Part shown: piece by piece, positions 12 to 26,844 of the stretch
How positions within the stretch are numbered: the stretch's first letter is position 1
Layout of the letters: each line of letters starts with the position of its first letter
Assembly: GCA_965649595.1 (NCBI GenBank)
Contig: CBFGLP010001568.1
Location: 1 to 36,240 of the forward strand
Direction: 5' to 3'
Length of the DNA stretch: 36,240 nt
Source of the DNA: an uncultured Myxococcales bacterium
GTDB lineage: Bacteria; Myxococcota_A; Polyangia; Nannocystales; Nannocystaceae
The notes under the pieces: generated by a model
Seen by the model: the letters and a program-made list of their open reading frames with translations, nothing else
Databases searched by the model: none
Told to the model about the DNA's origin: nothing
Made by a program: the position numbers and the translations under genes

Positions 12-1415
12 TTACCCGATCGGGCTGGCCGAGCCAGCGCGATGGGTGGGAGCCCGACGCATCGATTTGGAGAGCAGCGCGGTCGCGCACGGCCAGATCA
101 GCTGCTGCAATCCATCCAGCTCGACGCGCCGCCGCTCGTCCGCGGGTAGGCACCCATGCGCTCGCAGCAAGCGTCGCTGCTCGGCATCGAGGCACTCGGC
201 CTCTTGCTCGCGCACGTGCAGGGACGCAAACACGTCCAGCACCTTCGTCCGCAGCTCGGGCTGTTGCCCGAGCGCCCACTGGACGAAGCGCCAAGCCAGC
301 CCCGCGTGGCGAGCCTCGTCGTCGGCGATCGATCGCAGCAGCGCTGCGAGCTTCGGGTCCTCGCAATGCGCGGCCGCTGTGGCGATCTCGAGCGCCGCGA
401 TCGTCTCGCCGATGCAACCCTCGCGCACGCACGCGAGCAGCATCGCCTCGAGGTCCTGCGTCGCTCCAGCTCCGCGCACGTCGAGGGCAGCGAAGCCGAG
501 CGGTCCACCAACTAATTTAGACGCGAGCGCTAGCGCTGCCTCGGCGTGGCGGGCCTCGTCCGCCGCAGCCGCGAGCGCGTCACGGATCAGCTCGGGCGGC
601 GCAGCGATCGCGAGCAAGCGCGACGCGAGCTGAGCGAAGCTGGCGATCGAGGCGTGCTCGGCCGCGGCGACACGAGCCCAGTGCGCGGCGAGGTGCTCGC
701 GCAAGGCTGGGGATAGATCGGCGAAGCGGGGCTCGTCGTCAGTGCGGGGTGCTCGAGCGATCCGCTCGAGCGTCGCATGACGCGGGGCGCCATCGACCAC
801 GAAGGGCCGCCCATCACTGCCACACACCAACGACCCCTCGGCGATCGAGCAACACTGGCCATTGATCTCGTAGGGCCCGCACACGTTGGCCGGGGGCTCC
901 CAGACCGGGTCGCCCATGCAGTTGGTCCAGTCGGCGATGCAGTCGCCCTCCGGACACAGGGACTCGCAGGTTTGGCCCTCCTCGAGGTCGACGCAGCCGA
1001 GATAGATGTCGTTCCAGCAGTTTCCTTCATCGGGCACGATCGGGCAGTCGGGGTGCTGTGCGAGGATCGAGGAGTCGGAGAGGGTGGTCGTGCAGTCACC
1101 GAGCGGGGGCAAGTCGGGCTCCGAAGGCAGGTCGAGCTTGGGCTCGGGTAGATCGTCGGCTTCGCCCTCGCTGTCGGTCTCGTCGTCGGTGCTGGTGCTG
1201 GTGGTCGTCGGGTCCGAGTCGTCCGACGAGCTGTCATCGCCGAGCTCGTCGTTCGCGTCGTCGCTCGAGCTTCCGCTACTGCTCGGATCCGTGGTCACGC
1301 CCGCCTCATCTGCCGACGGCACCGCGCTCCCACACGCCGTCATGACCGAGGGGATCGCGAGCCCCAAGCTCGTCAGCAACTGGCTTCGTAACCGCTCGAG
1401 CGTCGTGGTGGGCAT
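12..1415 (-). CDS. Ferritin-like (diiron four-helix) domain protein with lipoprotein-type N-terminus, acidic Ser/Thr linker and Cys-rich region
   Basis: The N-terminus is LLTSLGLAIPSVMTAC (lipobox-like Cys), followed by a D/S/T-rich linker and a Cys-rich segment ending CGSDGRP. The C-terminal part has EHASIASF, DEARH, EGCIGETIAA and a second DEARH, the E...ExxH / E...ExxH pattern of ferritin-like diiron proteins. Confidence 0.8.
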   Translation of the reverse strand: MPTTTLERLRSQLLTSLGLAIPSVMTACGSAVPSADEAGVTTDPSSSGSSSDDANDELGDDSSSDDSDPTTTSTSTDDETDSEGEADDLPEPKLDLPSEPDLPPLGDCTTTLSDSSILAQHPDCPIVPDEGNCWNDIYLGCVDLEEGQTCESLCPEGDCIADWTNCMGDPVWEPPANVCGPYEINGQCCSIAEGSLVCGSDGRPFVVDGAPRHATLERIARAPRTDDEPRFADLSPALREHLAAHWARVAAAEHASIASFAQLASRLLAIAAPPELIRDALAAAADEARHAEAALALASKLVGGPLGFAALDVRGAGATQDLEAMLLACVREGCIGETIAALEIATAAAHCEDPKLAALLRSIADDEARHAGLAWRFVQWALGQQPELRTKVLDVFASLHVREQEAECLDAEQRRLLRAHGCLPADERRRVELDGLQQLIWPCATALLSKSMRRAPTHRAGSASPIG

Positions 1416-2017: not shown

Positions 2018-2581
2018 ATGTACACCAATACCCGCATCGTGGTCATGGGGGCCCTGTTGGCCCTCGCTTTCATCCCCTCTGCGCATGCTACGGATCCGAC
2101 CCCGCCCGACCTTTGTGTCGAGCCGCTTCGCGGGGTTACCGGCGAAGCCTACGTGGATCTGCAGGGTGACTTCGTGTCTCGCTTCTGCGATCCGCGAATC
2201 AATCCGCCGGTGCTCGATCTCGAGGTCTGCTGCTCGATTGGTGAAACCGCGTCGTGCAAGCTGCCTGACGCGGTTGGCCGCTGCTCGACCGGAATGAAGT
2301 TCTGGTGCGAGTACGGAGTGGTCGCCGGAACCACCGTGGCCTGCTTCCAGCCCGGTCCGGGCACTTGCGCGGAGGGCCACTGCAGCGGCGTCCCGGGGCC
2401 CGGGACGATCTTCGACGATTCGAGCTGGGTCTGCTGCAGCGACGATGACGAGTGCGTCTACGTCGGCGAATCGGGCGATAATCCGCCGGAGAACGTGTCC
2501 TGTGCCGGTGACCTGACGATCTGCAACTGGGGCAGCTTGAACGAGGACAATACCGTCACTTGCGGTAATAGTAATCCATGA
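2018..2581 (+). CDS. Secreted cysteine-rich protein (16 Cys, internal two-fold repeat)
   Basis: Signal peptide MYTNTRIVVMGALLALAFIPSAHA; 16 Cys; two VCCS...C...C...CxxG...TVxC units. Confidence 0.75.
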   Translation: MYTNTRIVVMGALLALAFIPSAHATDPTPPDLCVEPLRGVTGEAYVDLQGDFVSRFCDPRINPPVLDLEVCCSIGETASCKLPDAVGRCSTGMKFWCEYGVVAGTTVACFQPGPGTCAEGHCSGVPGPGTIFDDSSWVCCSDDDECVYVGESGDNPPENVSCAGDLTICNWGSLNEDNTVTCGNSNP

Positions 2582-3854
2582 TCTTGCGCGAGCTCGCTCG
2601 CACTCGTTGAGCGCGCTCGCGGCTGACTGCATCGCCTTCGTCCTTGGCCAGCATGGATGCACGACGGGCGATCCGACCAGCGATCAGACCTGCGTCTTCC
2701 CGATCTTCGGGGGGACGCCCCTCGGCCGATTGAAGCACGAGCTCGGCGAGCTCCACAGCATCCTTGGCGCTGACCATTGCTAGCTCGTCGGCCCGCCGAA
2801 ACTCCGACCAGGCAGCAATTGGGTCACCCGCCTTTGCGTATTCCATGGCACGCTCGAAAGTCGGCGGCTGTGGCTGTTCAGCCTCGGGGTTGATGAAAGT
2901 TGCAGCCAGGTGTCCCGAGCTGGCGGCGACCAGCAGCAGCCCGCCAAACAAGGCAGCGCGTCGACGATCACGTCGAGTATCGCGCTGCTGTTGGGGCCGG
3001 TCGCGCAGCTCGTTGAGCGCGTCGAGTAGCTCGGTCATGGTCGGCCGCAGCTCGGGCAGCGGTGCGCAGCCGCGCTCGAGCAGGCGCTGCAGGTCTGCTT
3101 CGAGCTCGCCCGGCACCTCACGGCACAGCCCGACGCAGTACGTGAGCGTGAAGGCGAACGAGAACACGTCACCGGCTGGCTCCCACTGGCCGCCAAAGCG
3201 CTCTGGTGGCATGAAAGGCGGCGTGCCGGCGGCCTCACCGGAGCGGGTGCTGCGGCGCGCGAGGCCGAAGTCGGCTAGCTTGGCGCGGCTGTCCTGAATG
3301 AGGATGTTGGTTGGTTTGACGTCACCATGCACGACGTCGCTGGCGTGCAAGTGCTCGAGCGCGCGGCCAACCTCGATCGCGCGGTCGAGCAGATCGAGGA
3401 GCGGATAGAGCCGCGCGTAGCTGGCCAGGTTGCCCTCCGGGCACCACTCCATCACCGTGCAGATGAGGCCTTCGATGGTCTCGACGCCGTGCACGACGAC
3501 GATGTTGGGGTGCGCGAGGCTGGCGAGCAGGCGCGGCTCGGGCTCGACGCTGCGGCGCGAGACCTTGAGGACGACGTGACGATCGAGGGCGCGATCGATC
3601 GCGACATAGACGCTGGCCCAGCGGGTGGTGCTGACATGCTCGCAGACGAGGAAGCGCCGGACTGGTTGACCGGCGAGCAGCTCGAGGCGCTCGCGGTCAA
3701 CTCGTGCACCACCGATTGCTTCGAGCAATTCGTCGACGTTGCACGTCTCGCCAAGCTCCGGGCCCCACCAAGCCGGTAGCTCCTGCAACGACGCTATCGG
3801 AGCTGGCGGCTCGTTGGGGCCCGGAGGTAGCGGGGCATTGGCGGCAATCTCCAT
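2556..3854 (-). CDS. Ser/Thr protein kinase (Hanks type) with one TM helix and a helical C-terminal domain
   Basis: Motifs VVLK, HPNIV, HGDVKPTN, DFG, GTPPFMPPE and DVFSF; TM segment AALFGGLLLVAASSG. The Gly-rich loop is degenerate. The 3' end overlaps the convergent Cys-rich gene by 26 nt. Confidence 0.88.
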   Translation of the reverse strand: MEIAANAPLPPGPNEPPAPIASLQELPAWWGPELGETCNVDELLEAIGGARVDRERLELLAGQPVRRFLVCEHVSTTRWASVYVAIDRALDRHVVLKVSRRSVEPEPRLLASLAHPNIVVVHGVETIEGLICTVMEWCPEGNLASYARLYPLLDLLDRAIEVGRALEHLHASDVVHGDVKPTNILIQDSRAKLADFGLARRSTRSGEAAGTPPFMPPERFGGQWEPAGDVFSFAFTLTYCVGLCREVPGELEADLQRLLERGCAPLPELRPTMTELLDALNELRDRPQQQRDTRRDRRRAALFGGLLLVAASSGHLAATFINPEAEQPQPPTFERAMEYAKAGDPIAAWSEFRRADELAMVSAKDAVELAELVLQSAEGRPPEDREDAGLIAGRIARRASMLAKDEGDAVSRERAQRVRASSRKIMDYYYRK

Positions 3855-4949: not shown

Positions 4950-6542
4950 CTATTGCTGCTGGGGAGCAGGCGATTGCGAGTCGTCGGCCGGCATTGGTGC
5001 AGGCACAGCGGCGTTCGCCGCTGGGCTCGGACCGACCTTCTCTTCGAGCGCGAGCAGCAGGTTGCGAGTAAGCCGGACTTCACCATGCAAACCTGCCTGC
5101 TCGCCCCCGCGTGGACCTTGGGTTGGGTCCGCATCACTCGCAGGGACGAGGACGCCAACGGGCGGCGTCCCCAGGGTCATGACGGGGATCGACGCGCGCA
5201 GGTAGGGGGCGAGCGAGGGTAACGTGAGTTGATTCCCAAACAGGAGATCTCGCCCATCACGTTTCGCGACTCGCGCAGCTAGCTCGGCGATGCGGGCATC
5301 GAAGGCCCCGCTGAGCAGCAGGGCCGGGTGCAGGCTGTCGGGGTCGACGCGGTCGAACGCGAGGACGCTGGTCGGCTGGACGCCCGCTGTCGCGGTCCAA
5401 CGCGCGTGCGCGAGCTGGCCAGCTCCGAAGCCAGCGTCGACAGCAAACAGCGCGAACAGCGACCTCCGAGGACGGGTACCCCGACGCTGCCAGTCGGCGA
5501 GCTGGGCGAGCACGCCGAGGCTGGCGAGCAAGCGATGGCTAGCGAGCTGCTCGTCGTCGTGGCTAGGAGTGTCCCATGCACAGACGAGCACGGCGGCCTC
5601 GCTCGGAAGCTCGCGGCCCGGCAGTCGAGCGGCGACGTTGTGGCTGGTGAGCCGCCGCTCGTGCAGGCCGAGGTCGATGTCGAGCAGCCAGGGCTGGTCA
5701 TCGACGAGCGCGGCCTGCAAGCCATCGCGGCCCCCTGCGTCCAGGACACCTTCGATCAGCAGCGGGTCGGTCTCGCTGCTGCCGATCGGGTGGTACTGCC
5801 GACGCCAGCGCTCGCGCAGGGGTTCGAGGGCGGCATCGTCGAAGCCGGTGAGGACCAGGCAGCCGAGCGCTCCGCTCTCGCGCGCGAGGGCCACGATCGC
5901 GTCGATCCGAGCGGGGGCATCCGAAGCGGCGAGGTCGAGCTCGGGCGGGGCCTCCAAGAGGATGACGCGGCCCGCTACGGCCTCGCGCGGGAGCGCCTCG
6001 CCGAGCTGGCGAATGGGGCTGAGCGAGAGGCCCTCGACGGGGCCCGGTCGCCGCTGCCGAAAGGCGCCGTGCCGAGCCAGATCGATCGCCTCGGCAGGGT
6101 CATCGGTGCGGCCCGGACGAGCGATGACGCGAGGGGGACTCTCGGAGCTGGCTTCGACCAAGCTGAGCTCGACGTCCTGCAGCCAGCCTCCGCGAGGACC
6201 GGCAGCCTCGAACCCGAAGCTGCGCAAGAGCGCGACGAGGTGCGCGGTGGTGCGGGGATCCTCGGGCAGGCGGCGACGTAGCTCGTTGTCGATGTAGGCG
6301 GTCTCACGCTCGAGGAAGGCGTCGAGCGAGGCACGCAGGAGGTCCTCTGCGTCGTCGAGCTGCTCGGGGATCCGTGGCGGGAGATCGGGGAACTCGAGCG
6401 ACTCGGGATCGGGCGGCGGCGGGAGATCGAGGATTGGCTCGATCTTGCAGGCCCCCAGAACGAAGGGAGCCGCGAAGGGACCCGCGAGCGGGCCGAGGCC
6501 GAGCCAGCGGAGAATGCGACGGCGAGAGTGAAGGCGGGTCAC
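4950..6542 (-). CDS. M28 peptidase-like (PA + M28 fold) Tat lipoprotein, probably catalytically inactive
   Basis: GTG at 6542 overlaps the upstream stop (GTGA). The signal is SRRRILRWLGLG...VLGAC (twin-Arg plus lipobox). M28 scaffold motifs: GGWLQDVEL, VAGRVILL, SHNVAARLPG, PRRSLFALF, PYLRASIPVM. The Zn ligands are absent. Confidence 0.65.
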   Translation of the reverse strand: MTRLHSRRRILRWLGLGPLAGPFAAPFVLGACKIEPILDLPPPPDPESLEFPDLPPRIPEQLDDAEDLLRASLDAFLERETAYIDNELRRRLPEDPRTTAHLVALLRSFGFEAAGPRGGWLQDVELSLVEASSESPPRVIARPGRTDDPAEAIDLARHGAFRQRRPGPVEGLSLSPIRQLGEALPREAVAGRVILLEAPPELDLAASDAPARIDAIVALARESGALGCLVLTGFDDAALEPLRERWRRQYHPIGSSETDPLLIEGVLDAGGRDGLQAALVDDQPWLLDIDLGLHERRLTSHNVAARLPGRELPSEAAVLVCAWDTPSHDDEQLASHRLLASLGVLAQLADWQRRGTRPRRSLFALFAVDAGFGAGQLAHARWTATAGVQPTSVLAFDRVDPDSLHPALLLSGAFDARIAELAARVAKRDGRDLLFGNQLTLPSLAPYLRASIPVMTLGTPPVGVLVPASDADPTQGPRGGEQAGLHGEVRLTRNLLLALEEKVGPSPAANAAVPAPMPADDSQSPAPQQQ

Positions 6543-7412: not shown

Positions 7413-10400
7413 TCAGGGGTGGAAGAGCGCGAGCTCGATCAGCTCGGGGACCAGGAGATCGCGGATCCGGGCGGGGCAGCACGTGCTGCCTTGCTCGTCG
7501 CGCTCGATCAGACCGGCGGTGGCGAGGAAGTGTAGCCAGCGGTTCAACTCGTCGGGCTCGAGCGTGAGCTCGGCCGCGAGCTCGCTCGTGTGGCAGGGGC
7601 CGAAGCGGATCAGCAGCGCGAGCAGGTTGAGCGCGGTCGGGGGGAGCTGGCGGACGAACACGAGCCCGCGCGGGCGGTGAATCGGCGCGAGCGCGAGGGT
7701 CTGGTCGCGCAGCTCGGCGCGTCGGCACCACTCGGCGAGCGTGGCCCGCAGGTTGCCGCGGCCGCTGCGGGCGAGCTGAGCGAAGAACTGCCGCTCCTGC
7801 GAGCGGGTGCGCAGGCCGGGGATCCGAGTCAGGAGGCCGCGCAGGCGCGGCGCGGGCGGATAGGCGAGCGCGAGGCCGCTGATCCGGTGACGGGCGCTGA
7901 TGGTGGTCTCGAGCTCGCTGAGGTCGTGGCTGCCGAGCTCGAGCACGCCGGAGAAGCCGACGCGCAGGGCGAGCAGCGGATCGAGCAGGCGCTGCAGCTC
8001 GCGCTCGACGGCGACCAGCCAGAAGCACGAGCTCGCGGTCGCGGCGATCAGCTCGAGCAAGCGCTGGACTTCGGCGACCGCGGGGGCGCCGAGCGGCAGC
8101 AGGCGCTGAAGATCGTCGATCACGATCACGCGGGGGCGATCGTGGAGGCGGCGGAGCACCAGCTCGGTGCGGGCCGGGCAGCGAAGCTCGCCAGCGAGCG
8201 CGTCGAGCAGCCCGCGGCGGTGGTTGGGCAGCCAGAGGATCTCGCGGGTCGCGAGCTTGAGCTGAGCGACGGAGAGCAACGAGGTCTTGCCGGTTCCGGG
8301 TCCACCGATCACGAGCATCGCGTTGCCGGCCTCGTGATCGATCCAGCGCCGCTCGGCCCGCGTGACGACGCGCAGCGCCTCGCGGTTGGCGACGAAGAAG
8401 CGAGGATCGCGGATCGGCTGATCGGTGAACAGCGCGATGTACTCGCGCGGGAGGTGGCTGGGCGAGCCAGGTAGCAGCTCGGCGATCTCGTTGGCGGACA
8501 GCAGCGAGCGACCGGAGCGGAGCCGATAGTCCTGGCTCAGCGAGGCGGCGGCCGAGCTGACGCGCTGGATCAGGCGAGTGGCGGTCGCCGTGATCCGGTC
8601 GCGCAGCTCGGCTAGCCGGGTGACGATGCGCAGGCGCGCACGATCGGCGCGGCGGGACACCCACTGCGCGGCCTCGTTGGTCTCGGTCGCGTCGCTCAGC
8701 GCGGTCGCGACGTGCTTGGCGACCGCGTCGAAGTCGTCCTGGATCGTCTGGGCGGTCGTGCGCAGCTCGGTGATCGCTCGGTCGTGCAGCTCGCTCGCGC
8801 GGCCGAGGATTCGGTCGAGGCTGGTGCGAAGGGTGTCGAGCTCTGTCTCGCCGGGCTCGCGCGCGCGGTAGACCTCGAGCATCAGCTCGATGTCGCTGAC
8901 CAAGGTCGTGGCGGCCCTGACGGTCTCGTCGATCAGCGCGGCCGCGGCCTCGATGCGGGTCTGCGTGCGGGGGAGCAGACGACCGGAGATCTCGCCGTCG
9001 ATCAGCTCGCGGACATCGACCTCGCGGATGCGTAGGCGAGCAGGGACCGAGGCGGTCGCGACCAGCTCGGTGGCGGCGAGCGGGCGCGGGCCGGCTTCGC
9101 GGGCGAACAACTCGCGGACGGCCTGGCGGATCGCTCGCAGCTCGGCGACCCGACCGAGGCGCTGATCGAGCTGACGCAGGCGCTTGGCGGCGGGCTTGGG
9201 CAGGAGGCCGCGGCAGCGCATGCCGAGGCTCGTGAGCAGGGCGTCGAGCTGCTCGGGCGAGGGTGGGGCAGGGGACGAGCCGTCGTCGGAGCGGGGGGTG
9301 AGCTGCTCGCGGAGCTCGGCGAGCCGACGCTGATACACGCCGAGCTCCTCGTCGATCGCCTCGCATGCGCGCTCGAGCTCGCCGACGGTCGAGCGCCCGC
9401 CCGCGAGCTGAGCGTGGAGGACCTGGACGCGAGCCGTGACGGCGATCGATTGCCAGCAGGCGTCGAGCACGGTCGGCCAAGCCTCGGCTTCCTGCTGCAA
9501 GGTCGCGAGCTCGCGCTCGATCGCGCTGGCGACCTCGCTGAAGTCGAGCGCGCGGATCGGCATCGCTGGCGAGTCGATCCGGTCGAGGGTGATCCGCAGC
9601 GCTCGATCGGCGGAGGTCAACGCGGCGGTAGGCAGCGCGCGCGCGCTGGACTCGAAGTCGTCGAGCAAGGCGGCGACGCTCGGGTGGAGGTCCTCGGGCG
9701 CGAGCCCGCCGACCAGGCGCTTGCGCATCAGCTCGGCTAGCTGGGCGTCGCAGCGGCACGCGGCTCGGAACAGCTCGAGCATCGCGGTCGCGAGTCGCGG
9801 CTCGTAGGCGGTGCGGGCTGCGAGGCGCAGAGGGACGCGGCGACGGGCAGCCCGACGCCGACCGAGCCGGATGGCGAGCCGACGCAGCACCCGACGGGCT
9901 CGCTGCCACGCGGCCTCGTCGGGCCGCGGCTCCGACCAGCGAGGCTCGAGCGGGACGTCGCGCGAGAGCTCGAGCGCCTCGAGCCGGGCGGCCGCGAGCT
10001 CGAACGCGGTGGCGAGCGTGCGCGCGAACGCGAGGGCGTCCGCGGGCGGGTGGGTCTCGGCCGCGTCGGCGTAGAGCGTGGGCTCGGCGTCGACGGGCAG
10101 CCGAGCGAGCAGCCTGCGACGCTGCTGCAACCAAGGCTGAAGGAAGCGGACGAGCGCCAGGTCGAGCTCGCGGCCGAGCGTGCGTCGGAGCTCGCGGGTG
10201 CGGGCCTCGAGCTGGGCGTCGGCGAGGGTGATCGCGTCGCTATCGTCGGTGGCGTCGGCCGAAGCTGCGCTCGATTCGGCAGCGGCGGTCGTGTCGGGGA
10301 GCTCTCCAGCGCGCCGCAAGGCCGTACGCAGCAGCACCGGCCCGAGCAGCAGGTTGATCGCCACGATTGGCATGCCGAGCGCTTGGATCTGCTCGCCCAG

Positions 10401-11576
10401 CTCGGGCAGCTGAGCAACCGCGATGCCAACCAGCCCGAGCGTCACTCCGGCTTGCGGCAGGTACGCGTACCAGGCGTTCGCGCGGACGGCTTCGGACTCG
10501 CCACCGAAGCGATTGCCGAGCCCGGCCGCGAGCCAATAGGACAGCGCGCGGACGGCCACGAGCGCGAGCGCGACGGGCAACAGCGCCAGCGTGGCGCCGA
10601 GATCGACGCCCGCACCGGCGTTGGTGAAGAACACCACGAACACGGGCAGCGACACGAGCTGCAGCGGCGGCAGCAGATCGTGCTCGTAGTCCGAGAAGTT
10701 GCGGACGACGAAGCCCGCGGCGATGCAGACCAAGAGCAGCTCGAGGTGAAACGCGGCGGACAGCTCGGCGACGACCAGCACGAGCGCCGCCACGAAGAGC
10801 AGCATCTCGGCCTTGATCCAGCGGATGTAGGCGATCAGCAGGCCACCGATCGCGGCGCCGACGACCAGCGAGAGGCCGAGCTCGGCAGCAACGTGGAGCA
10901 CGACGCTGGCTTCGATCGCTTCACCCCCGACGAGCGCGTGTGCGATCGCGACGCAGAGCGCGAGCGTCACGACCACGACGAGGTCCTTGAGCACGGCGGC
11001 GCCGAGGACCAGATCGGCGAGCCGTCCCTTGGCGCGGCTCTCGGCGATGATCGCCAGCGAGATCGAGGGCGAGGTCCCGAGCGCCAGCGCTCCGAACACG
11101 AGCCCGAGCCCGATCACGAGGTTCAGGTCGCTCAGCCCCAAGGGGTGAAAGGTCAGCTCGATGCCGATCAGTGCGCCGGCGACCAGCGGGACGCTGAGCA
11201 CGAGCTTGGCGAGCGTGGTGGTGCCGAGCGTGGCGAAGAGCCGACGCAGGCTGGTCAGCTCGAGCTCGAGCCCCGCGGTCAGGGCGATCAGCCCGAGCGC
11301 GAGGGTGTTGAACATCCGCATCTCGTCGACGACCGCGAGCGAGAGCACGTTGGCCGCATAGGGGCCCAGCAGCACACCGGACAGGATGTAGCCGGTGACC
11401 TTGGGTAGGCCGGCGCGGGCGAGCAGCTCGGCGATCGCGAACGCAGCGAGGATCACGAAGCCGATCGCGGCGAGCGTGAGCGGATCGGACGCGCCGGGCT
11501 GCGTGGCGCTGGTCTCGAGCGCGCGCAGGCCCAGCATCAGGAAGAGCAGGCCGACGACGACGAAGATCCGTTTCAT
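7413..11576 (-). CDS. Cation:proton antiporter (CPA-like) fused to a long helical region, P-loop NTPase and C-terminal winged helix (1387 aa)
   Basis: The true start is ATG 11576 (ATGA overlap with the trkH stop); the 1822-aa ORF extension upstream is shadow. The first ~430 aa form a multi-TM CPA domain (LPKVTGYILSGVLLGP, TSPS, PQAGVTLGL). Walker A is GGPGTGKTS, Walker B is VIVIDD, and the end is wHTH-like (GPCHTSELAAEL...LHFLATAGLI). Confidence 0.8.
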   Translation of the reverse strand: MKRIFVVVGLLFLMLGLRALETSATQPGASDPLTLAAIGFVILAAFAIAELLARAGLPKVTGYILSGVLLGPYAANVLSLAVVDEMRMFNTLALGLIALTAGLELELTSLRRLFATLGTTTLAKLVLSVPLVAGALIGIELTFHPLGLSDLNLVIGLGLVFGALALGTSPSISLAIIAESRAKGRLADLVLGAAVLKDLVVVVTLALCVAIAHALVGGEAIEASVVLHVAAELGLSLVVGAAIGGLLIAYIRWIKAEMLLFVAALVLVVAELSAAFHLELLLVCIAAGFVVRNFSDYEHDLLPPLQLVSLPVFVVFFTNAGAGVDLGATLALLPVALALVAVRALSYWLAAGLGNRFGGESEAVRANAWYAYLPQAGVTLGLVGIAVAQLPELGEQIQALGMPIVAINLLLGPVLLRTALRRAGELPDTTAAAESSAASADATDDSDAITLADAQLEARTRELRRTLGRELDLALVRFLQPWLQQRRRLLARLPVDAEPTLYADAAETHPPADALAFARTLATAFELAAARLEALELSRDVPLEPRWSEPRPDEAAWQRARRVLRRLAIRLGRRRAARRRVPLRLAARTAYEPRLATAMLELFRAACRCDAQLAELMRKRLVGGLAPEDLHPSVAALLDDFESSARALPTAALTSADRALRITLDRIDSPAMPIRALDFSEVASAIERELATLQQEAEAWPTVLDACWQSIAVTARVQVLHAQLAGGRSTVGELERACEAIDEELGVYQRRLAELREQLTPRSDDGSSPAPPSPEQLDALLTSLGMRCRGLLPKPAAKRLRQLDQRLGRVAELRAIRQAVRELFAREAGPRPLAATELVATASVPARLRIREVDVRELIDGEISGRLLPRTQTRIEAAAALIDETVRAATTLVSDIELMLEVYRAREPGETELDTLRTSLDRILGRASELHDRAITELRTTAQTIQDDFDAVAKHVATALSDATETNEAAQWVSRRADRARLRIVTRLAELRDRITATATRLIQRVSSAAASLSQDYRLRSGRSLLSANEIAELLPGSPSHLPREYIALFTDQPIRDPRFFVANREALRVVTRAERRWIDHEAGNAMLVIGGPGTGKTSLLSVAQLKLATREILWLPNHRRGLLDALAGELRCPARTELVLRRLHDRPRVIVIDDLQRLLPLGAPAVAEVQRLLELIAATASSCFWLVAVERELQRLLDPLLALRVGFSGVLELGSHDLSELETTISARHRISGLALAYPPAPRLRGLLTRIPGLRTRSQERQFFAQLARSGRGNLRATLAEWCRRAELRDQTLALAPIHRPRGLVFVRQLPPTALNLLALLIRFGPCHTSELAAELTLEPDELNRWLHFLATAGLIERDEQGSTCCPARIRDLLVPELIELALFHP

Positions 11577-13018
11577 CGGCGCCACAGCTCCCGCGAGAAC
11601 ACGCTGAGCAGCACGAAGATCTCGAGCCGGCCGGCGATCATGCACCCGGACAGGACCAGCTGGCCGAGCGGGGGGACGCTGGCGAAGTTCTGGGTCGGCC
11701 CGACGGTGCCGAGCCCAGGGCCGACACTCGACAGGCACGCGACGGTGCCGGTCATCGCCGAGATCAAGTCGAGCCCGAGCGCGACCAGGATCGTCGACGC
11801 GACCATGAAGATCGCCATGTAGGCGGCGAAGAACACCAGCACGCCCGAGACGATCTGCGGCGGGATCGCTACTCGCCCGAGCTTGATCGTCGCGACCACG
11901 TTGGGGCTGGTCGCGGCCCGGATCTCGCGGCCGATGATCTTGAGCAGCAAGAGCACGCGCACGGCCTTGAGCCCGCCTGCGGTCGAGCCAGCGCAGCCGC
12001 CCATGAACATGCACAGGAAGAGCAGGTAGCGGGCGAGGTCCGGGTAGGTGTCGAAGTCCTCCGTCATGTACCCGCTCGTGCTGGTGATCACGAGCACCTG
12101 AAAGCTGGCGAAGCGCATCGACTCGCCGACGCTCGGGTGGCGGTCCCAGATCGACCAGGCGATGATCACCGAGACCAGCAGGTTGACCGCGAAGAAGAAG
12201 CGCAGCTCGGGGTTGTCCCACAAGTCGCGCCAGCGTCCGCGCAAGGCCATGTAGTAGAGCCCGAAGTTGGACCCGGCGATGAACATGAAGATGATCGTCA
12301 CCCAGTCGATGTACGCACTCTGGTAGTGGCCGATGCTCGCGACCTTGGTCGAGAACCCGCCGGTCCCGAGCGTCGACATCGCGTGACAGATCGCGTCGAA
12401 CACCGGCATGCCGCCCGCGATGTAGAGCAGCGCGCAGAGCAGCGTGATCCCACCGTAGATCCACCACAGCGCGAGCGCGGTCTGCTTGATGCGCGGGCGC
12501 AGGCCCTCCGCCTGGGGACCGGGGACCTCGACCCGAAACAGCTGCTTGGCACCCACGCCGAGCTGCGGGAACACGGCGACGAAGAGCACGACGATGCCCA
12601 TGCCGCCGATGAAGTGCATCTCGCAGCGCCACAGGTTGGTCGCGCGGGTCAGCTTCTCGACGTCGGGGACCACGCTGCCGCCGGAGGTGGTGAAGCCCGA
12701 GACCGCTTCGAAGATCGCCGCGGCTGGCTGGGGGATCGAGCCCTCGATCACGAAGGGCATCCCGCCGAAGATGCCCATCGCGATCCAGATCAGCACGACC
12801 ACTCCGATCGCGTCCTTGCGGTGGAGCTGATCGTCGGCGTTGCGACCGAGCCGACGCAGCAACCAGGCCACCAGCGCGCACGCGAGCATCGAGACCGAGT
12901 AGGCGAACGCGCTGAGCGGCTCGCCGTCGTAGAGCGCGAGCAGGGTCGGCGCGAGCAGGGTCACCGCGACCAGCCCGAGCAGCGGAGCCGACAGACGAGC
13001 GACGGCGTGGAGGTTCAC
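11573..13018 (-). CDS. trkH: Trk system potassium uptake membrane protein TrkH
   Basis: Four pore-loop motifs ([32 protein letters not shown]), plus [20 protein letters not shown] and IAGRLEI. Confidence 0.95.
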
Positions 13019-14343
13019 GAGCCCGACCTCCGTGCGCGCTGCAGCGACTTCTCGAGCAGGGCCATGCGCGCGGATGGGAGCGCGACGATCACGTGCTCGC
13101 CGGTGGTCAGGTTGCTGCGCTGGCGTGCGGAGCGGATCCGCTGTCCGGCGATCGCCAGCGGGACCGAGCCGGGCGGAAGCGGCAGATCGGCGATCCGTTC
13201 AGCCAACCCTTCGGGCCGCAGCTCGACGATCTCGATCCCGAGCTCGGGCAGCGCCGAGCGACCGACCAGCGCCCCGCTCGGCAGCAGCCAGTGGATCACC
13301 TGTGCGATGGTCTCGTGCGGGCTGACGGTCCCCGACACCCCGAGGTGCGAGTACACGCCCGCGTAGCCGGGCCGATGCACGAGCGCGAACACGTGGTCGA
13401 CGCCCAGCTCGCGGGCGAGCAGCGAGGTCATCAGGTTGGCCTCGTCGGAGCCGGTCACGGCCAGCAGCGCGTCGGAGCGGCCGACCTGCTCCTCGCGCAA
13501 GAACGAGAGGTTGGTCCCGTCACCGTGCAGGACCTGGACGCCGTGTAGCTGCTCGGCGAGCGCCCAGCAGCGCTGGCGATCGCGCTCGATCAAGCGATCC
13601 AGCAGATCCTTGGGCCCGAGCAGCTTGGCTAGCTGGGCCCCGACGTCGCCACCTCCGACGATCGTCGTTCGCACGCGGCCCGAGTCCGGCGTGAGATCCT
13701 GGAGGACCTCGAGCACGGTCATCGGCGCGCCGCAAATGATCGCTACGTCGCCGAGCTCGGCGTGCTCGATCTCGGCGACCGAGCGGAGGTGACCGGCTCG
13801 CACGATCGCCGCGATCGGCTCGGGCCAGCTGGTCGAGCGCCCGCGGCTGCGCAGCAAGGGCGAGTCCTCGCCGAGCCGATGCGTGGCCACGTGCACGAGC
13901 CCAGCGGCGGCCGGGACCACGTGCTGGGCTCGCACGCCCGCGAGCATGCGCAGCAGCTCGACGCCGACCAGGCGGCTCGCGCACAGGACCGCGTCGATGC
14001 CGAGCACGCCGCCCTCGAACCCGAGCGGGGTCGCAAAGAAGCTCGGATCGTCGACGCGCGCGACCGTCTGGCGGGCGCCCATGTGCTTGGCCAGCGCCGC
14101 GCAGACGATGTTGAGCGAGTCGTGGGGGGTGACCGCGACCACGAGATCCGCCCGCTCGACCTCGGCCCGCGCGAGCACGTCGCGGTGCGACGCGTCGCCG
14201 GGGAGCGAGAGCGCGTCGATGCCCTCCTCGGCGGCCGCGAGCGCGTTGGCATCGGCGTCGACCAGGATCAGCTCGGCCTCGTGTTGCAGCGAGCGTGCGA
14301 GGTGACGACCGACCTCACCGACGCCGACGATCACCACCCTCAT
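13015..14343 (-). CDS. trkA: Trk system potassium uptake regulatory subunit TrkA (two RCK domains)
   Basis: Two Rossmann motifs (VIVGVGEVG and IVGGGDVG), HGDGT and VTGSDEANL; 4-nt overlaps with both neighbours. Confidence 0.92.
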   Translation of the reverse strand: MRVVIVGVGEVGRHLARSLQHEAELILVDADANALAAAEEGIDALSLPGDASHRDVLARAEVERADLVVAVTPHDSLNIVCAALAKHMGARQTVARVDDPSFFATPLGFEGGVLGIDAVLCASRLVGVELLRMLAGVRAQHVVPAAAGLVHVATHRLGEDSPLLRSRGRSTSWPEPIAAIVRAGHLRSVAEIEHAELGDVAIICGAPMTVLEVLQDLTPDSGRVRTTIVGGGDVGAQLAKLLGPKDLLDRLIERDRQRCWALAEQLHGVQVLHGDGTNLSFLREEQVGRSDALLAVTGSDEANLMTSLLARELGVDHVFALVHRPGYAGVYSHLGVSGTVSPHETIAQVIHWLLPSGALVGRSALPELGIEIVELRPEGLAERIADLPLPPGSVPLAIAGQRIRSARQRSNLTTGEHVIVALPSARMALLEKSLQRARRSGS

Positions 14344-15677
14344 CGCTCGACCTCCTCACCCGCGTCGCGCTCGACTGGCTCTGCCGGCTCGGCTGGCTCG
14401 GCTGCGACCGTCGCGACGGGGGCCGGCGGTCGTGGACGGATCGCTCCGGCGTTGGCGAGCACCCGCCGCAGCGAGCGGAACGAGAACACGTCGAACACCA
14501 ACATCGGGACCAACACCGCGCTCATCACCAGTGGGCTCGTGTCTGGGTGCCGCTGCGCGTAGCTCAGCCCGATCGCGGCCGCGAGCGCGCCTTGCCCGAG
14601 CAGCCCTGCGCCGAGCCGACGGAACTCGGCCCCGTGCACGAAGGTCATGACCGCCCAGTGGGTCGCGACCAGCCGCACGCCCAGGCGCACGAGCAGGTAG
14701 GCCGCAGGCACCAGCCACGCCCAGCCGAGCACCGGCTGCCAGGCGATGCCCGCGAACACCAAGAGCAGGACCGAGACCGGCCGCTTGAGCGGCTCGAGGT
14801 TGACCTGCAGGCGATCGGCGTGGCTCGACGTCCCCGCGACGGTCAGCCCCGCGACCAGGTTGACGAACAGCGAGGAGACCCCGAGCGCAGCTCCGATCCC
14901 GGCCGCGAAGATCACCGCGCCGATCGTCGCGACGTAGAGGCGCACGTCATCCTCGGCGCCGCCGATGAAGATCGTGAACAGCAGGCCCGAGACGGCCCCC
15001 GCGGCGCCGATCAGGAGCGCCCACTCGGCGAGGCTGAGCCCGTGCAGATCCGCGGCCTCGGCCCGATCGCCCGCGAGCGCGAACCCGCAGGCGACGACCG
15101 CCAGCACCTGGCCCGCGCTGGCGAGGTCTCCGAGCAGCTCGACCACGCTGCCCTCCGCGCGCCAGCGCTGCACCCCTTCGGTGATCGCCGACGACGAGGC
15201 GACCGCCGCCGCAGCGCCGAGCGTGAGCGAGAGCCACAGCGCGTCGTCGGCCGCCCAGATTTGATAGAGCCGCTCGCCGTCGGTCCACACCGGGATCTCC
15301 ACGCGCGGATCCGGAGCGCTCAGGTAGCTGGGCTCGAGCCACTGGATCAGCCCCAGGCAGGCGATCGTCACCGCGAGCGCGACGGCCAGGCTCGCCAGCG
15401 AGCCAGCCAAGAAGTGCTCGAAGCGACGCAGGGCCGCGCGTGCGTGCAGCCCGACCATGAAGCCGAGCAAGCCGAGCAGCAGCGTGACCAGCAGATCGAG
15501 CGACACCCAGGTCTGCTCGTCGACGAGGCCGAAGGGGGCGAGCGGTCCGATCAGCACGCCGACGAGCACGTACTCGCTGCCCGACACCATCGCGAGGCGA
15601 TCGGCGTAGCGGTGCAGGAATCGGCTGACGACGAACGCGAAGACGATCAGCGCGACGAGGACGAGGGTGGTGTTCAC
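14340..15677 (-). CDS. Cation:proton antiporter (CPA/Kef-like) membrane protein
   Basis: About 12-13 hydrophobic segments; motifs SGSEYVLVGVLIGP, LLGFMVGL, VSSLFVNLVAG and LLGQGALAAAIGL. First gene of the coupled operon. Confidence 0.72.
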   Translation of the reverse strand: MNTTLVLVALIVFAFVVSRFLHRYADRLAMVSGSEYVLVGVLIGPLAPFGLVDEQTWVSLDLLVTLLLGLLGFMVGLHARAALRRFEHFLAGSLASLAVALAVTIACLGLIQWLEPSYLSAPDPRVEIPVWTDGERLYQIWAADDALWLSLTLGAAAAVASSSAITEGVQRWRAEGSVVELLGDLASAGQVLAVVACGFALAGDRAEAADLHGLSLAEWALLIGAAGAVSGLLFTIFIGGAEDDVRLYVATIGAVIFAAGIGAALGVSSLFVNLVAGLTVAGTSSHADRLQVNLEPLKRPVSVLLLVFAGIAWQPVLGWAWLVPAAYLLVRLGVRLVATHWAVMTFVHGAEFRRLGAGLLGQGALAAAIGLSYAQRHPDTSPLVMSAVLVPMLVFDVFSFRSLRRVLANAGAIRPRPPAPVATVAAEPAEPAEPVERDAGEEVER

Positions 15678-18264: not shown

Positions 18265-18553
18265 GGAGCAGGTCGCGGTTGCGAGCCCCGAGACCGAGGA
18301 TGAACGTGGACCCCTCGGGGGCAAGCGGTGGGCCGATGCGCCGGCGATTTAGTCGAGTGGCCGAGCCTTTGGTGGCTGTCCCCGGCCAAGTCGATTCGCG
18401 GGAAGGATTCGGCGCTCACGATATAGATGATCAGCGATGCCCTTCGTCGCGGCGCAGCGGGCACGACCTACGTCGGTGTGTTGGCGCTTGTCGATGCGCC
18501 CATCCGCACGCGAGACTGAGCGAGGCGGCTCCCGGAGCCGAGAGGCGAGACGC

Positions 18554-20026
18554 ATGGCATCCGAGCACCAGCAGGTTGGGGACGAGTATCTCGAGCAGCG
18601 CAGCTTGCAGCGCAGCGCGGGCGCGCTGCTGCTGTGGGGCCTCGGGGTCGGCTACGTGATCTCCGGTGACTTCTTCGGCTGGAACTTCGGCCTGGCCGCA
18701 GGCGGCTTCGGCGGCATGGCGATCGCGGTCGTCCTGATGGCCGCGCTCTACCTCGCGATGATCTTCTCGATCGCCGAGTTGGCCACGATGATGCCGGTCG
18801 CGGGAGGACCCTACGCGTTCGCCCGGCGGGCGCTCGGGACCTGGGGTGGGTTCATTACCGGGGTCGCGGTGACGATCGAGTACGTGCTCGCACCGGCCGT
18901 GATCGCGACGGGGATCGGTGGCTACGTGGCGGGGATGTTCACCGCGGCGCCAGACTGGGTCGCCACCTGGGTCCCGATCTTGGCCTATGTCGTGTTCGTC
19001 GGCGTCAACTTGCTGGGCAGCCGCTTCTCGCTCGCGCTGCTGCTCGGGATCACGCTGATCTCGGTCGTGGTCTTGTTGATCTGGGCGGCCGCGATGTTGC
19101 CCCACGTCGACACCCAGAACTGGATCAACGTCGAGCCAGAGCCAGGCCAGTCGCGCTGGCTGCCGCACGGGCCCGCAGGCGTCGTCGCAGCCCTGCCTGC
19201 CGCAGGGTGGTTCTTCCTCGCGGTCGAGGGCGTGCCGCTCGCAGCCGAAGAGACGCGCAATCCCGGGGTCGCCCTGCCGCGGGGAATGATCGCCGCGATG
19301 CTCTCGCTGATCGGCTTCTCGGTGCTCACGCTCACGATCGGGCCCGGCGTCGGTGGGACCGCGACGCTGGCCGAGGCCGCCAACCCCTTGCCTGCCGCGA
19401 CCGAGGCGGCGGTCGGGCGCAGCTGGGTGTATTGGCTAGTGACGGTGATCGGCCTCGCCGGGCTGATCGCCAGCTTCTTCTCGATCATCTTCGCCTACTC
19501 GCGGCAGATCTTCGCGCTCTCGCGGGCGGGCTACCTGCCACGTTGGTTGTCGCGCACGAATCGGCACAAGGCGCCGCATTGGGCGTTGATCGTGCCTGCG
19601 GTGCTCGGCTATGCGGTGATCCGGCTGGTCGACTCGTTCAACGCGGGCGAGGTCGCGACCGGAGACCTGCTCATGCAGATGGCGGTGTTCGCCGCGTTGA
19701 TCTCGTACGCGATGATGCTGATCAGTCACTTCGTGCTCCGCCGTCGGGAGCCTCGCGCTGCCCGGCCCTATCGCACGCCGCTCTATCCATTCACCCCAGC
19801 CCTGGCGTTGCTGCTGGTGATCGTCGCGCTCAGCTCGACGATATTCTATGGTGGAGCGGCCGCGTTCGGGGTGCTGGGCACCGCGACCGTGCTGGTGATC
19901 GGGATTGCCTACTTCGGGCTCCATAGCCGGCACCACTTGATTGCGAGCGCTCCCGAGGAGGAGGCGGCGTTGATCTCGGCGGCCGAGCGAGAGCTCGATA
20001 GCCGCTCGAGCAGCACGGGCGGCTAG
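18554..20026 (+). CDS. eat: Ethanolamine permease (APC superfamily)
   Basis: YLEQRSL...LLWGLGVGYVISGDFFGWNFGL, MPVAGGPY, WFFLAVEGVPLAAEET, GLIASFFSIIFAYSRQ, RPYRTP and APEEE. ATG 18554 is the preferred start. Confidence 0.88.
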   Translation: MASEHQQVGDEYLEQRSLQRSAGALLLWGLGVGYVISGDFFGWNFGLAAGGFGGMAIAVVLMAALYLAMIFSIAELATMMPVAGGPYAFARRALGTWGGFITGVAVTIEYVLAPAVIATGIGGYVAGMFTAAPDWVATWVPILAYVVFVGVNLLGSRFSLALLLGITLISVVVLLIWAAAMLPHVDTQNWINVEPEPGQSRWLPHGPAGVVAALPAAGWFFLAVEGVPLAAEETRNPGVALPRGMIAAMLSLIGFSVLTLTIGPGVGGTATLAEAANPLPAATEAAVGRSWVYWLVTVIGLAGLIASFFSIIFAYSRQIFALSRAGYLPRWLSRTNRHKAPHWALIVPAVLGYAVIRLVDSFNAGEVATGDLLMQMAVFAALISYAMMLISHFVLRRREPRAARPYRTPLYPFTPALALLLVIVALSSTIFYGGAAAFGVLGTATVLVIGIAYFGLHSRHHLIASAPEEEAALISAAERELDSRSSSTGG

Positions 20027-26271: not shown

Positions 26272-26844
26272 ATGACTGAAGTGGAAATGCAAGCCATCGC
26301 TCAAACCTGGACGCGCGCGGATATCGTGCGGATGCGCGACGGGTTCGTTGTCAACCCTCACCACGCTGAGGCGGGGTGGCCGCCTGGAAAGGCGTTGGAG
26401 CACGCATTCATTCGAGCTTTTTAGCTCGATGGGCTCCTCGTGCATTGGCCCTTTCGTGTCCGCGACGGGCGTCCTGGATCCGAGGTCGGCATCGAGCTCG
26501 AGCACGTCGATGGTGCCGTGTCAGATGGTACCACCCTCTTTCTGGTGGAGACCAAGCACTGGGGGGAGAATCTCGACATCGTTCCTATCGTGAAGCTCTT
26601 GGCTCAATTGAATCGGCGTCCTCCAGCCGTGCTGGGGATCGTGCTCTCGTGGCTGGACTTCACCGAGCCGGCGCTGGTGCTCGTTCGACGCCTGCCTCCC
26701 TATCGCGTCCTGCTGTGGTGGGGGAGCGAGCTCGTCTGGGCCGCGCGAGAGAGCGGACGCATGCGATCGCTCCTGGCCGCTAAGCTCGAGTCTGCGGCTC
26801 TGCACGCTGTCCCCGATCACTACGTTGGAGATTTCCCGCAATGA
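26272..26844 (+). pseudogene. PD-(D/E)XK restriction-endonuclease-like (Mrr-type) gene interrupted by an in-frame TAG
   Basis: GGAG RBS and ATG 26272. The frame reads ...GWPPGKALEHAFIRAF*LDGLLVHWPF...EHVDG...LVETK...SWLDFTEPA, with TAG at 26422-26424 (codon 51). The E-helix, D and ExK motifs span the stop. Confidence 0.7.

What the first reader, a model, noticed from the sequence alone, without database searches (positions are those of the whole stretch)
7413..11576. Cation:proton antiporter fused to a ~950-aa cytoplasmic region with P-loop NTPase and winged helix
Seen: a CPA-like membrane domain, ~600 aa of helical/coiled-coil sequence, intact Walker A (GGPGTGKTS) and Walker B (VIVIDD), GRGNLR, and a wHTH-like end. 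Established: CPA regulatory tails are usually RCK/KTN, USP, CBS or cNMP domains. Inference: the NTPase-helical-wHTH arrangement resembles AAA+/STAND-like switches, so this could be a nucleotide-gated or oligomerising ion transporter or sensor.
Basis: partly seen in the sequence, partly recalled or inferred. Interest (0 to 1): 0.75.

Follow-up and report, generated by a model that had tools for sequence, protein, structure and literature searches.

The report
Antiporter fused to MscS-partnered AAA+ module
This bacterial gene joins an ion exchanger to a long helical arm and an ATPase-shaped module that is almost always encoded next to its own kind of pressure-sensing (MscS-type) membrane protein, and wherever the exchanger is attached that partner has lost the usual pore signature, so the pair likely forms an undescribed machine that ties ion transport to cell turgor.

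Summary
Confirmed. Window 11576-7413 (-) is one intact 1387-aa frame: a CPA antiporter domain, two predicted helical-bundle repeats without a solved match, and a Cdc6/ORC-like AAA+ fold with a winged helix. The fusion is conserved in many myxobacterial relatives. The constant partner of the AAA+ module is not the antiporter but an MscS-like gene directly downstream (190 of 200 loci), which forms its own subfamily. The module comes in three builds: soluble; behind a signal peptide plus membrane block; or fused to a transporter (CPA or K-Cl-cotransporter-like). Only in the transporter build has the MscS partner lost the Gly/Ala pore motif (37 of 38; 147 of 148 others keep it), and Walker A is often decayed (canonical in 11 of 35). 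This may be one ancient event. Best reading: the module likely docks on an MscS-like heptamer that serves here as anchor or tension sensor for the antiporter, in K+/turgor control. Binding is untested; co-folding was unavailable. Seven paper searches found no description.

The parts
7413..11576 (-). Whole gene: CPA-B antiporter + helical repeats + AAA+-like domain + winged helix, 1387 aa
10305..11576 (-). CPA membrane domain (residues 1-424); motif G-T-S-P, K197-D198, R343, E104
   Evidence: PF00999 E 3.8e-21; T168, S169, K197, R343, E104, Q375 in 94 of 94 and D198 in 93 of 94
9417..10217 (-). Helical repeat 1 (about residues 454-720), with a conserved polybasic hairpin at 551-590
   Evidence: AlphaFold; repeat test; net charge +4 to +5 per 20 residues, at least +3 in 82-94% of homologues
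8682..9416 (-). Helical repeat 2 (about residues 721-965)
   Evidence: profile match to repeat 1, E 3e-5; reversed control E 0.06
8514..8663 (-). Basic linker helix (residues 972-1021), lower confidence; candidate lipid-facing helix (inferred)
7677..8459 (-). AAA+-like P-loop domain and lid: Walker A 8280-8306, Walker B 8112-8129, invariant R1229 7890-7892, G-N-L-R 7746-7757
7416..7664 (-). C-terminal winged helix
6539..7363 (-). MscS-like partner, 274 aa; pore-helix motif lost (0 of 5); carries the subfamily S-P-aromatic motif
   Evidence: PF00924 E 1e-9
14340..15677 (-). CPA-A: second, tail-less and diverged CPA-like gene; Gln at the transport-Asp position in this copy
   Evidence: no Pfam hit; homologues match the CPA-B profile and some carry PF00999; present in 27 of 31 CPA-fused loci
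13015..14343 (-). trkA, stop/start overlaps with both neighbours
11573..13018 (-). trkH, its stop overlaps the start of the fusion gene; present in 19 of 31 CPA-fused loci

Best explanation
The gene encodes a cation/proton antiporter fused to a helical arm and an AAA+-like/winged-helix module that likely docks on the MscS-like protein encoded next to it, so that this partner, which here has lost the usual pore motif, would act as a membrane anchor or tension sensor controlling the antiporter in potassium and turgor balance. Shown: the architecture, the gene coupling, the partner subfamily, the pore-motif loss, the conserved transport Asp. Inferred steps: (1) the module binds the cytoplasmic cage of the MscS-like heptamer, possibly at its S-P-aromatic motif; (2) its polybasic helices lie on anionic lipid; (3) the P-loop binds ATP/ADP as a switch or is only structural, and is not a motor; (4) the helical arm passes the state to CPA-B, which likely pairs with CPA-A and would be electroneutral; (5) the ion is likely K+, from the Trk neighbours only.
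For: MscS-like gene directly downstream in 190 of 200 loci, 4 more at contig ends, whatever the N-terminal part. The partners separate from ordinary MscS in the tree (SH-aLRT 99) and share an S/C/T-x-aromatic motif (145 of 146 and 31 of 38, against 0 of 26 ordinary). AAA and partner distances correlate within classes (rho 0.56 and 0.62; permutation maxima 0.14 and 0.22). The same module is fused to a second, unrelated ion transporter, KCC-like (E 8e-84 to KCC4; 4 loci). Pore score at most 2 of 5 in 37 of 38 transporter-class partners; at least 3 in 38 of 39 membrane-block-class, 109 of 109 soluble-class, 25 of 25 ordinary neighbours and 5 of 5 ordinary MscS of this genome. G104, A106 and G108 are critical for EcMscS gating (PMC6261518, passage). 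The same loss is seen in a 32% GC genome outside the phylum (L236). In 40 loci the module follows a signal peptide, coiled coil and membrane block, a layout recalling MscK/MscM, and the partner profile scores MscM/MscK cores highest among solved structures (113 bits against 105 for MscS). D198 and R343 are conserved while the tail has drifted to 25-30% identity.
Against: No physical contact is shown; all evidence is genomic or predicted. The transporter-class partners form one group, so pore decay plus fusion may be one event, and long branches may inflate its support; monophyly of the matching AAA domains has support 58 only. These partners are diverged everywhere (beta domain 28% identity against 70-81%), not only in the pore, which also fits general relaxation. 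MscS homologues with bulky pore helices can conduct (MSL10, PMC6261518 passages). The pore score was devised after seeing the alignment, and five loci were put in the transporter class by hand. The MscK likeness of the membrane block is a lead only: Atlas score 0.78-0.81, but Pfam, PDB and profile-profile tests were negative. Lys at CPA motif position 6 is not among the variants in the passages read of PMC6181914, so antiport itself is unproven. Six loci lack the downstream partner. CPA-A keeps an acidic residue in 13 of 29 copies, so it is not uniformly dead.
Confidence: 0.45

Rival explanations
1. The partner is still a working channel. The AAA+-like module is its accessory gate or clamp, and the CPA fusion only parks an antiporter beside the channel and TrkAH, without allosteric control of the antiporter.
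For: In 160 of 200 loci the module has no transporter and the partner has a canonical pore. The window's partner keeps TM3b and beta-domain glycines. Non-canonical pore helices can conduct (PMC6261518).
Against: Does not explain why pore conservation collapses exactly in the transporter class (TM3a identity 18% against 58-68%; lower partner identity at equal AAA divergence), nor fusion to two different transporter families.
Confidence: 0.22
2. One reading: the tail is a self-contained ATP/ADP-sensing or oligomerising regulator of the antiporter, as RCK is for KefC; the mscS-like gene is only co-regulated.
For: Walker A is canonical in this copy; R1229 and the lid Gly are almost invariant; 3 loci with room downstream and one CPA-fused locus show no partner.
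Against: The module mostly occurs without a transporter but with the partner; the partner is a dedicated, co-diverging subfamily; Walker A Lys is lost in half of the fused homologues.
Confidence: 0.18
3. The winged helix binds DNA: a membrane-tethered transcription or chromosome-anchoring factor of Cdc6/ORC type that reads transport or turgor state.
For: Top structural matches are DNA-binding initiators and TnsC; weak MarR/ArsR HTH hits.
Against: Conserved winged-helix positions are mostly hydrophobic core; archaeal ATPases 2qen and 2fna match over more residues (289, 280); no regulated-gene pattern among neighbours.
Confidence: 0.07
4. The helical repeats are dynamin-stalk-like and the protein shapes or repairs membrane around the MscS-like ring.
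For: A bacterial dynamin-like trunk is among the best natural matches (5owv, Z 11.2, rmsd 4.0, 222 aligned), Mx stalks lower; polybasic helices.
Against: Z under about 13 is common for helical bundles and designed bundles score higher; no Foldseek hit under E 0.001; 40 loci have the module without these repeats.
Confidence: 0.05
5. A STAND-type anti-phage sensor with a membrane effector (antiporter or channel) that collapses the ion gradient on infection.
For: STAND-like features: GxP in 37 of 40 membrane-block-class domains, weak nSTAND Pfam hits, Avs and NLR structures in the lower ranks.
Against: No PADLOC match beyond P-loop/HTH noise; no sensor repeats; embedded in trkAH; recurring neighbours are ion and osmolyte genes; near-universal in some families (17 of 17, 22 of 23).
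Confidence: 0.03

Closest known systems
KefC/KefB K+/H+ exchangers (CPA2 with C-terminal KTN/RCK) and other CPAs with ligand-binding tails
   Same: CPA membrane domain with a C-terminal cytoplasmic regulator; potassium-gene context; databases name the homologues KefB.
   Different: No RCK; 960-aa helical + AAA+ tail; TIGR00932 score 48 against cut-off 238; motif GTSP/K6-D7/R8 against Kef L-S-S-T with polar residue 6 and K8 (PMC6181914 passages); dedicated MscS-like and CPA-A partner genes.
Cdc6/Orc1, TnsC and archaeal ATPases Paby2304 (2qen) and SSO1545 (2fna)
   Same: AAA+ core, lid and winged helix in the same order (Z 13.5-15.5).
   Different: About 13-16% identity; no conserved arginine finger; DD or EE Walker B; attached to membrane transport parts rather than to DNA replication or transposition.
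STAND NTPases (NB-ARC, NACHT, nSTAND; features recalled)
   Same: N-terminal partner domain, P-loop, GxP-like lid motif in one class, winged helix.
   Different: No C-terminal TPR/WD40/LRR sensor; GxP Pro in only 17 of 94 fused homologues; no defence context.
MscK/MscM and MscS channels
   Same: The partner is an MscS-fold protein whose family profile scores MscM/MscK highest; the membrane-block build plus partner has the order signal peptide, coiled coil, extra helices, core.
   Different: No known MscS-type channel has an AAA+-like accessory subunit (recalled; not found in searches); homology of the membrane block to MscS_TM not confirmed; the window's partner lacks the pore motif.
TC 2.A.37.6.1 (Myxococcus xanthus Q1D5P4, 432 aa, distant CPA2; PMC3924187 passages)
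   Same: A distant, uncharacterised myxobacterial CPA2 of the size of CPA-A.
   Different: Relation not tested; the passages read mention no ATPase fusion or MscS link.

Membership tests
CPA superfamily | Na_H_Exchanger profile above cut-off | tested here: met
   75.8 bits against 26.2
CPA superfamily | Asp at motif position 7 and Arg/Lys at position 8 | tested here: met
   D198 93 of 94, R343 94 of 94; positions assigned by spacing and alignment with CPA1/CPA2 rows
CPA superfamily | Measured cation/proton exchange | not testable with these tools
   needs vesicle assay
CPA1 | Glu at position 5 with Arg at position 8 | tested here: not met
   position 5 is Ala/Ile/Met/Ser (residue 193)
Kef-type CPA2 | C-terminal KTN/RCK domain | tested here: not met
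   no TrkA_N hit in the fusion; AAA+ fold instead
Kef-type CPA2 | L-S-S-T at positions 1-4, polar residue at 6, Lys at 8 | tested here: not met
   G-T-S-P, Lys, Arg (PMC6181914 passages)
Electrogenic CPA2 (NhaA/NapA/GerN) | Asp at 6 and Lys at 8 | tested here: not met
   K197 94 of 94, R343 94 of 94
AAA+ (Cdc6/ORC-like) | P-loop core + helical lid + winged helix fold | tested here: met
AAA+ (active ring ATPase) | Walker A Lys | tested here: inconclusive
   present in this copy; Lys 45 and Arg 46 of 94 homologues
AAA+ (active ring ATPase) | Walker B catalytic Glu (hhhhDE) | tested here: not met
   DD here and in 75 of 94; DnaA-type DD can be active (recalled)
AAA+ (active ring ATPase) | Conserved arginine finger before strand 5 | tested here: not met
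   Arg in 31 of 94 at residue 1205, not conserved in any class
STAND NTPases | GxP motif in the helical domain (recalled) | tested here: inconclusive
   G-N-L here; Pro in 37 of 40 membrane-block, 10 of 40 transporter, not among the four commonest residues in the soluble class
STAND NTPases | C-terminal sensor repeats (recalled) | tested here: not met
   protein ends with the winged helix
MscS family (partner) | Beta-domain profile and TM3b/beta/alpha-beta order | tested here: met
   PF00924 in 87 of 88
MscS family (partner) | Gly/Ala-rich pore helix TM3a | tested here: not met
   0 of 5 in the window; at most 2 in 37 of 38 transporter-class partners
MscS family (partner) | Tension-gated conductance | not testable with these tools
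   needs patch clamp
MscK/MscM N-terminal part (membrane-block class) | Homology to MscS_TM / MscS_porin | tested here: inconclusive
   Atlas features 0.78-0.81; no HMM, PDB or profile hit (template of 4 rows only)

The most novel reading that the evidence does not exclude
MscS-fold proteins have an unrecognised AAA+-like accessory subunit that assembles under the heptameric cage. In myxobacteria this pair was turned from a channel into a mechanosensor for secondary transporters: a pore-less MscS ring reads membrane tension and, through the AAA+ module and helical arm, switches a fused cation/proton antiporter or K-Cl cotransporter. This would be a tension-gated secondary transporter and a non-conducting bacterial MscS.
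Probability: 0.25. Interest if true: 0.9.

Novelty: categorically new. Interest (0 to 1): 0.72.

Why it matters
How bacteria couple turgor or membrane tension to K+ transporters is a long-standing open question (established knowledge). This system offers a concrete, clonable candidate: a two-gene module present in 104 of 251 genomes of the phylum and in Acidobacteriota, Gemmatimonadota, KSB1 and Calditrichota records, with natural builds that act as controls for each other (channel-like partner without transporter, pore-decayed partner with transporter). It would add a first ATPase-like subunit to the MscS family, a possible non-conducting MscS in bacteria, a CPA subfamily with an unusual Lys-Asp-Arg site, and bacterial KCC-like proteins with a giant regulatory tail.

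Tried and rejected
Reads: 8 DNA holders, no RNA holder listed; contigs of 4 runs gave no listed piece across the CPA-tail junction: no evidence either way. Frameshift or chimera: rejected on homologues. No solved CPA matched the membrane domain by sequence, so the CPA clade was judged by motif only. Helical region: no Foldseek hit under E 0.001; VIA rows covered mainly repeat 2 and were generic bundles; repeat 1 was not searched alone, so a new fold is not claimed. MscK homology of the membrane block: not confirmed. Defence system: no support. A regex count of the CPA motif was faulty and was replaced by the alignment count. The careful trees did not finish; quick trees are quoted. Paper searches for the architecture returned nothing that describes it in the listings: 0 papers; 2; 11; 1; 383, 10 listed, none naming the genus; most subscription papers are not in the library and no supplements were read. 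The CPA-A search did not show whether TC 2.A.37.6.1 belongs to it.
Full report
Observation. The frame 11576-7413 on the minus strand gives 1387 residues without a stop. Pfam places a cation/proton antiporter domain at 42-389 and weak AAA_22 and MarR-type hits at the end. The quoted motifs are present. The gene lies in a tight minus-strand run: CPA-A, trkA, trkH, the fusion, an mscS-like gene; the first three junctions overlap stop and start codons and the last gap is 50 bases. The nearest named homologues come from Enhygromyxa and Pseudenhygromyxa, so the host is likely a myxobacterium (inference). 36 of 37 other close homologues carry both parts. The tail finds 1029 clusters at 50% identity (the best 150 were examined).

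Anatomy of the tail. The last 355 residues fold with confidence (pLDDT 89) as an AAA+ core, lid and winged helix; the best matches are ORC/Cdc6, NSF-D2, TnsC and two archaeal ATPases, all within about 2 Z units. Among 94 full-length fused proteins, the P-loop glycines, D1154 (91), R1229 (94) and G1274 (92) are kept, but the Walker A lysine is Arg in 46, Walker B is DD in 75, and no arginine finger is conserved. This fits a nucleotide-binding switch or a pseudo-ATPase better than a motor (inference). Residues 451-1048 fold as long helices (pLDDT 92) in two related halves (E 3e-5 against 0.06 for a reversed control), with no clear solved match. Two polybasic stretches, one in repeat 1 and one before the AAA domain, recur in the fused, Acidobacteriota-type and KSB1-type alignments.

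The antiporter. The membrane domain is far better conserved (mostly 45-65% identity) than the tail (25-30%). It keeps the transport Asp (D198) and R343, with an invariant Lys beside the Asp and an invariant Glu104. By the CPA motif of PMC6181914 (passages and part 1 of the Results read) this is neither CPA1, Kef-type nor electrogenic; K6-D7-R8 is not among the variants in what I read. More distant fused subgroups have other pairs (Asp or Glu at position 7 in 25 of 33). CPA-A lies in 27 of 31 CPA-fused loci and trkH in 19, against 1 and 0 of 161 loci of the other builds. CPA-A has Gln at position 7 here and an acid in 13 of 29 copies. A CPA-A/CPA-B heterodimer is inferred, not tested.

The constant partner. 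The module was found in 104 of 251 genomes of the phylum. I examined 200 loci: 82 from the own phylum (80 regions that I chose from the matches, plus the window and contig C1027), the 80 kept of 154, and 38 of 41. An mscS-like gene follows directly in 190; 4 end at a contig edge; in 6 it does not follow (one directly upstream, one divergent, four not found). No other neighbour recurs widely; those that do are ion and osmolyte genes (labels partly recalled). The partners separate from ordinary MscS in trees, mirror the AAA tree (kinship of hosts contributes), and share an S/C/T-x-aromatic motif in the cage domain.

Three builds. Soluble: helical repeats plus AAA, 120 loci, mostly Acidobacteriota, Gemmatimonadota and metagenome contigs. 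Membrane-block: signal peptide, coiled coil, about six or seven hydrophobic segments, AAA, 40 loci, without the helical repeats. Transporter: 40 loci, of which 31 CPA-fused, 4 fused to a KCC-like domain and 5 assigned by hand (two split KCC fusions, two decayed CPA-like fusions, one short copy in this genome). I noted the MscK/MscM-like layout of the second build before the Atlas returned MscS_TM clusters as its best family hits (0.78-0.81), and the partner profile ranks MscM and MscK first. Direct homology tests failed, so this stays a lead.

Pore decay. Scoring five positions equivalent to EcMscS G104, A106, G108, A110 and Q112 (score devised after seeing the alignment; four truncated rows left out), transporter-class partners score at most 2 in 37 of 38, the others at least 3 in 147 of 148. 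Ordinary MscS score at least 3 in 25 of 25 (one misframed row left out) and at least 4 in 5 of 5 in this genome, so the cell has other release valves. At equal AAA divergence the transporter-class partners are 12-25 points less alike. A canonical Walker A is found in 11 of 35 transporter, 29 of 40 membrane-block and 100 of 116 soluble copies. Against over-reading: the class may be one clade, hence one event; the whole protein has diverged; and MSL10 conducts with a Phe-rich pore helix while also having a non-conducting role (PMC6261518, passages). Passages of bioRxiv 10.64898/2026.09.02.748947 show that MscS homologues can gate in other ways.

Mechanism. Most likely (0.45) the module binds the cage of the MscS-like heptamer. 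With a canonical partner it would regulate a channel; in the transporter build the ring would serve as anchor or tension sensor, and the arm would relay this to the antiporter, next to TrkAH uptake. Binding, nucleotide use, ion and direction of control are all inferred. Rivals: working channel with a merely tethered antiporter (0.22), stand-alone nucleotide regulator (0.18), DNA-binding role (0.07), membrane remodelling (0.05), defence (0.03).

Known and new. All parts belong to known families; the combination matches no system that I recall, and seven searches (listings only) showed no description. PMC3924187 (passages) lists a distant M. xanthus CPA2 without mention of this fusion. Six earlier notes of this scan describe the same family on other genomes; two gave me leads (duplicated helical domain, K-Cl fusion) that I tested and confirmed. 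They are not independent evidence. Verdict: real, conserved, undescribed; interest 0.72.

Noticed in passing
G000:C1027:746-7004 (L241) and G000:C70:1036-10430 (L235): Two more copies in this genome: CPA-A / 1526-aa CPA-AAA / mscS-like without trk, and a 689-aa single-repeat AAA gene divergent from an mscS-like gene, between two CPA2-USP genes and an HTH-PTS EIIA gene. The contig ends share 294 bases at 94% in CPA-A: likely one ion-homeostasis island or near-duplicates.
   Followed up: partly
L197:6902-10324, L178, L053, L202, L242 and 36 more: Membrane-block build: signal peptide, coiled coil, several membrane helices, then AAA+/winged helix, before a canonical MscS-like gene; looks like an MscK/MscM split around an ATPase module. 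No family hit for the N-terminal 700 residues.
   Followed up: partly
L188:4932-10130, L206, L208, L225: Bacterial KCC/SLC12-like transporter fused to the same helical + AAA module, with a pore-decayed MscS-like gene downstream.
   Followed up: partly
L236 (G253:C9:5011-11729): The CPA-A / CPA-AAA / MscS-like operon in a 32% GC genome outside the own phylum, which also holds a soluble-class copy (L087); its record label (Clostridia) sits oddly with Acidobacteriota-like relatives.
   Followed up: partly
window 4950-6542 (-): Gene overlapping the mscS-like stop; begins with a twin-arginine-like and lipobox-like signal and resembles an M28 peptidase without its metal His (resemblance recalled); no Pfam, NCBIfam or PDB hit; not seen in the related loci.
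   Followed up: partly
window 18437-20026 (+): APC-family permease on the other strand, 2.8 kb from the operon.
   Followed up: no
window 2556-3854 (-), 29771-31387 (+), 33353-35062 (+): Three Ser/Thr protein kinases in the window.
   Followed up: no
window 12-1415 (-) and 26440-26844 (+): Weak ferritin-like/diiron hits and a weak Mrr-type nuclease hit, all under cut-off.
   Followed up: no
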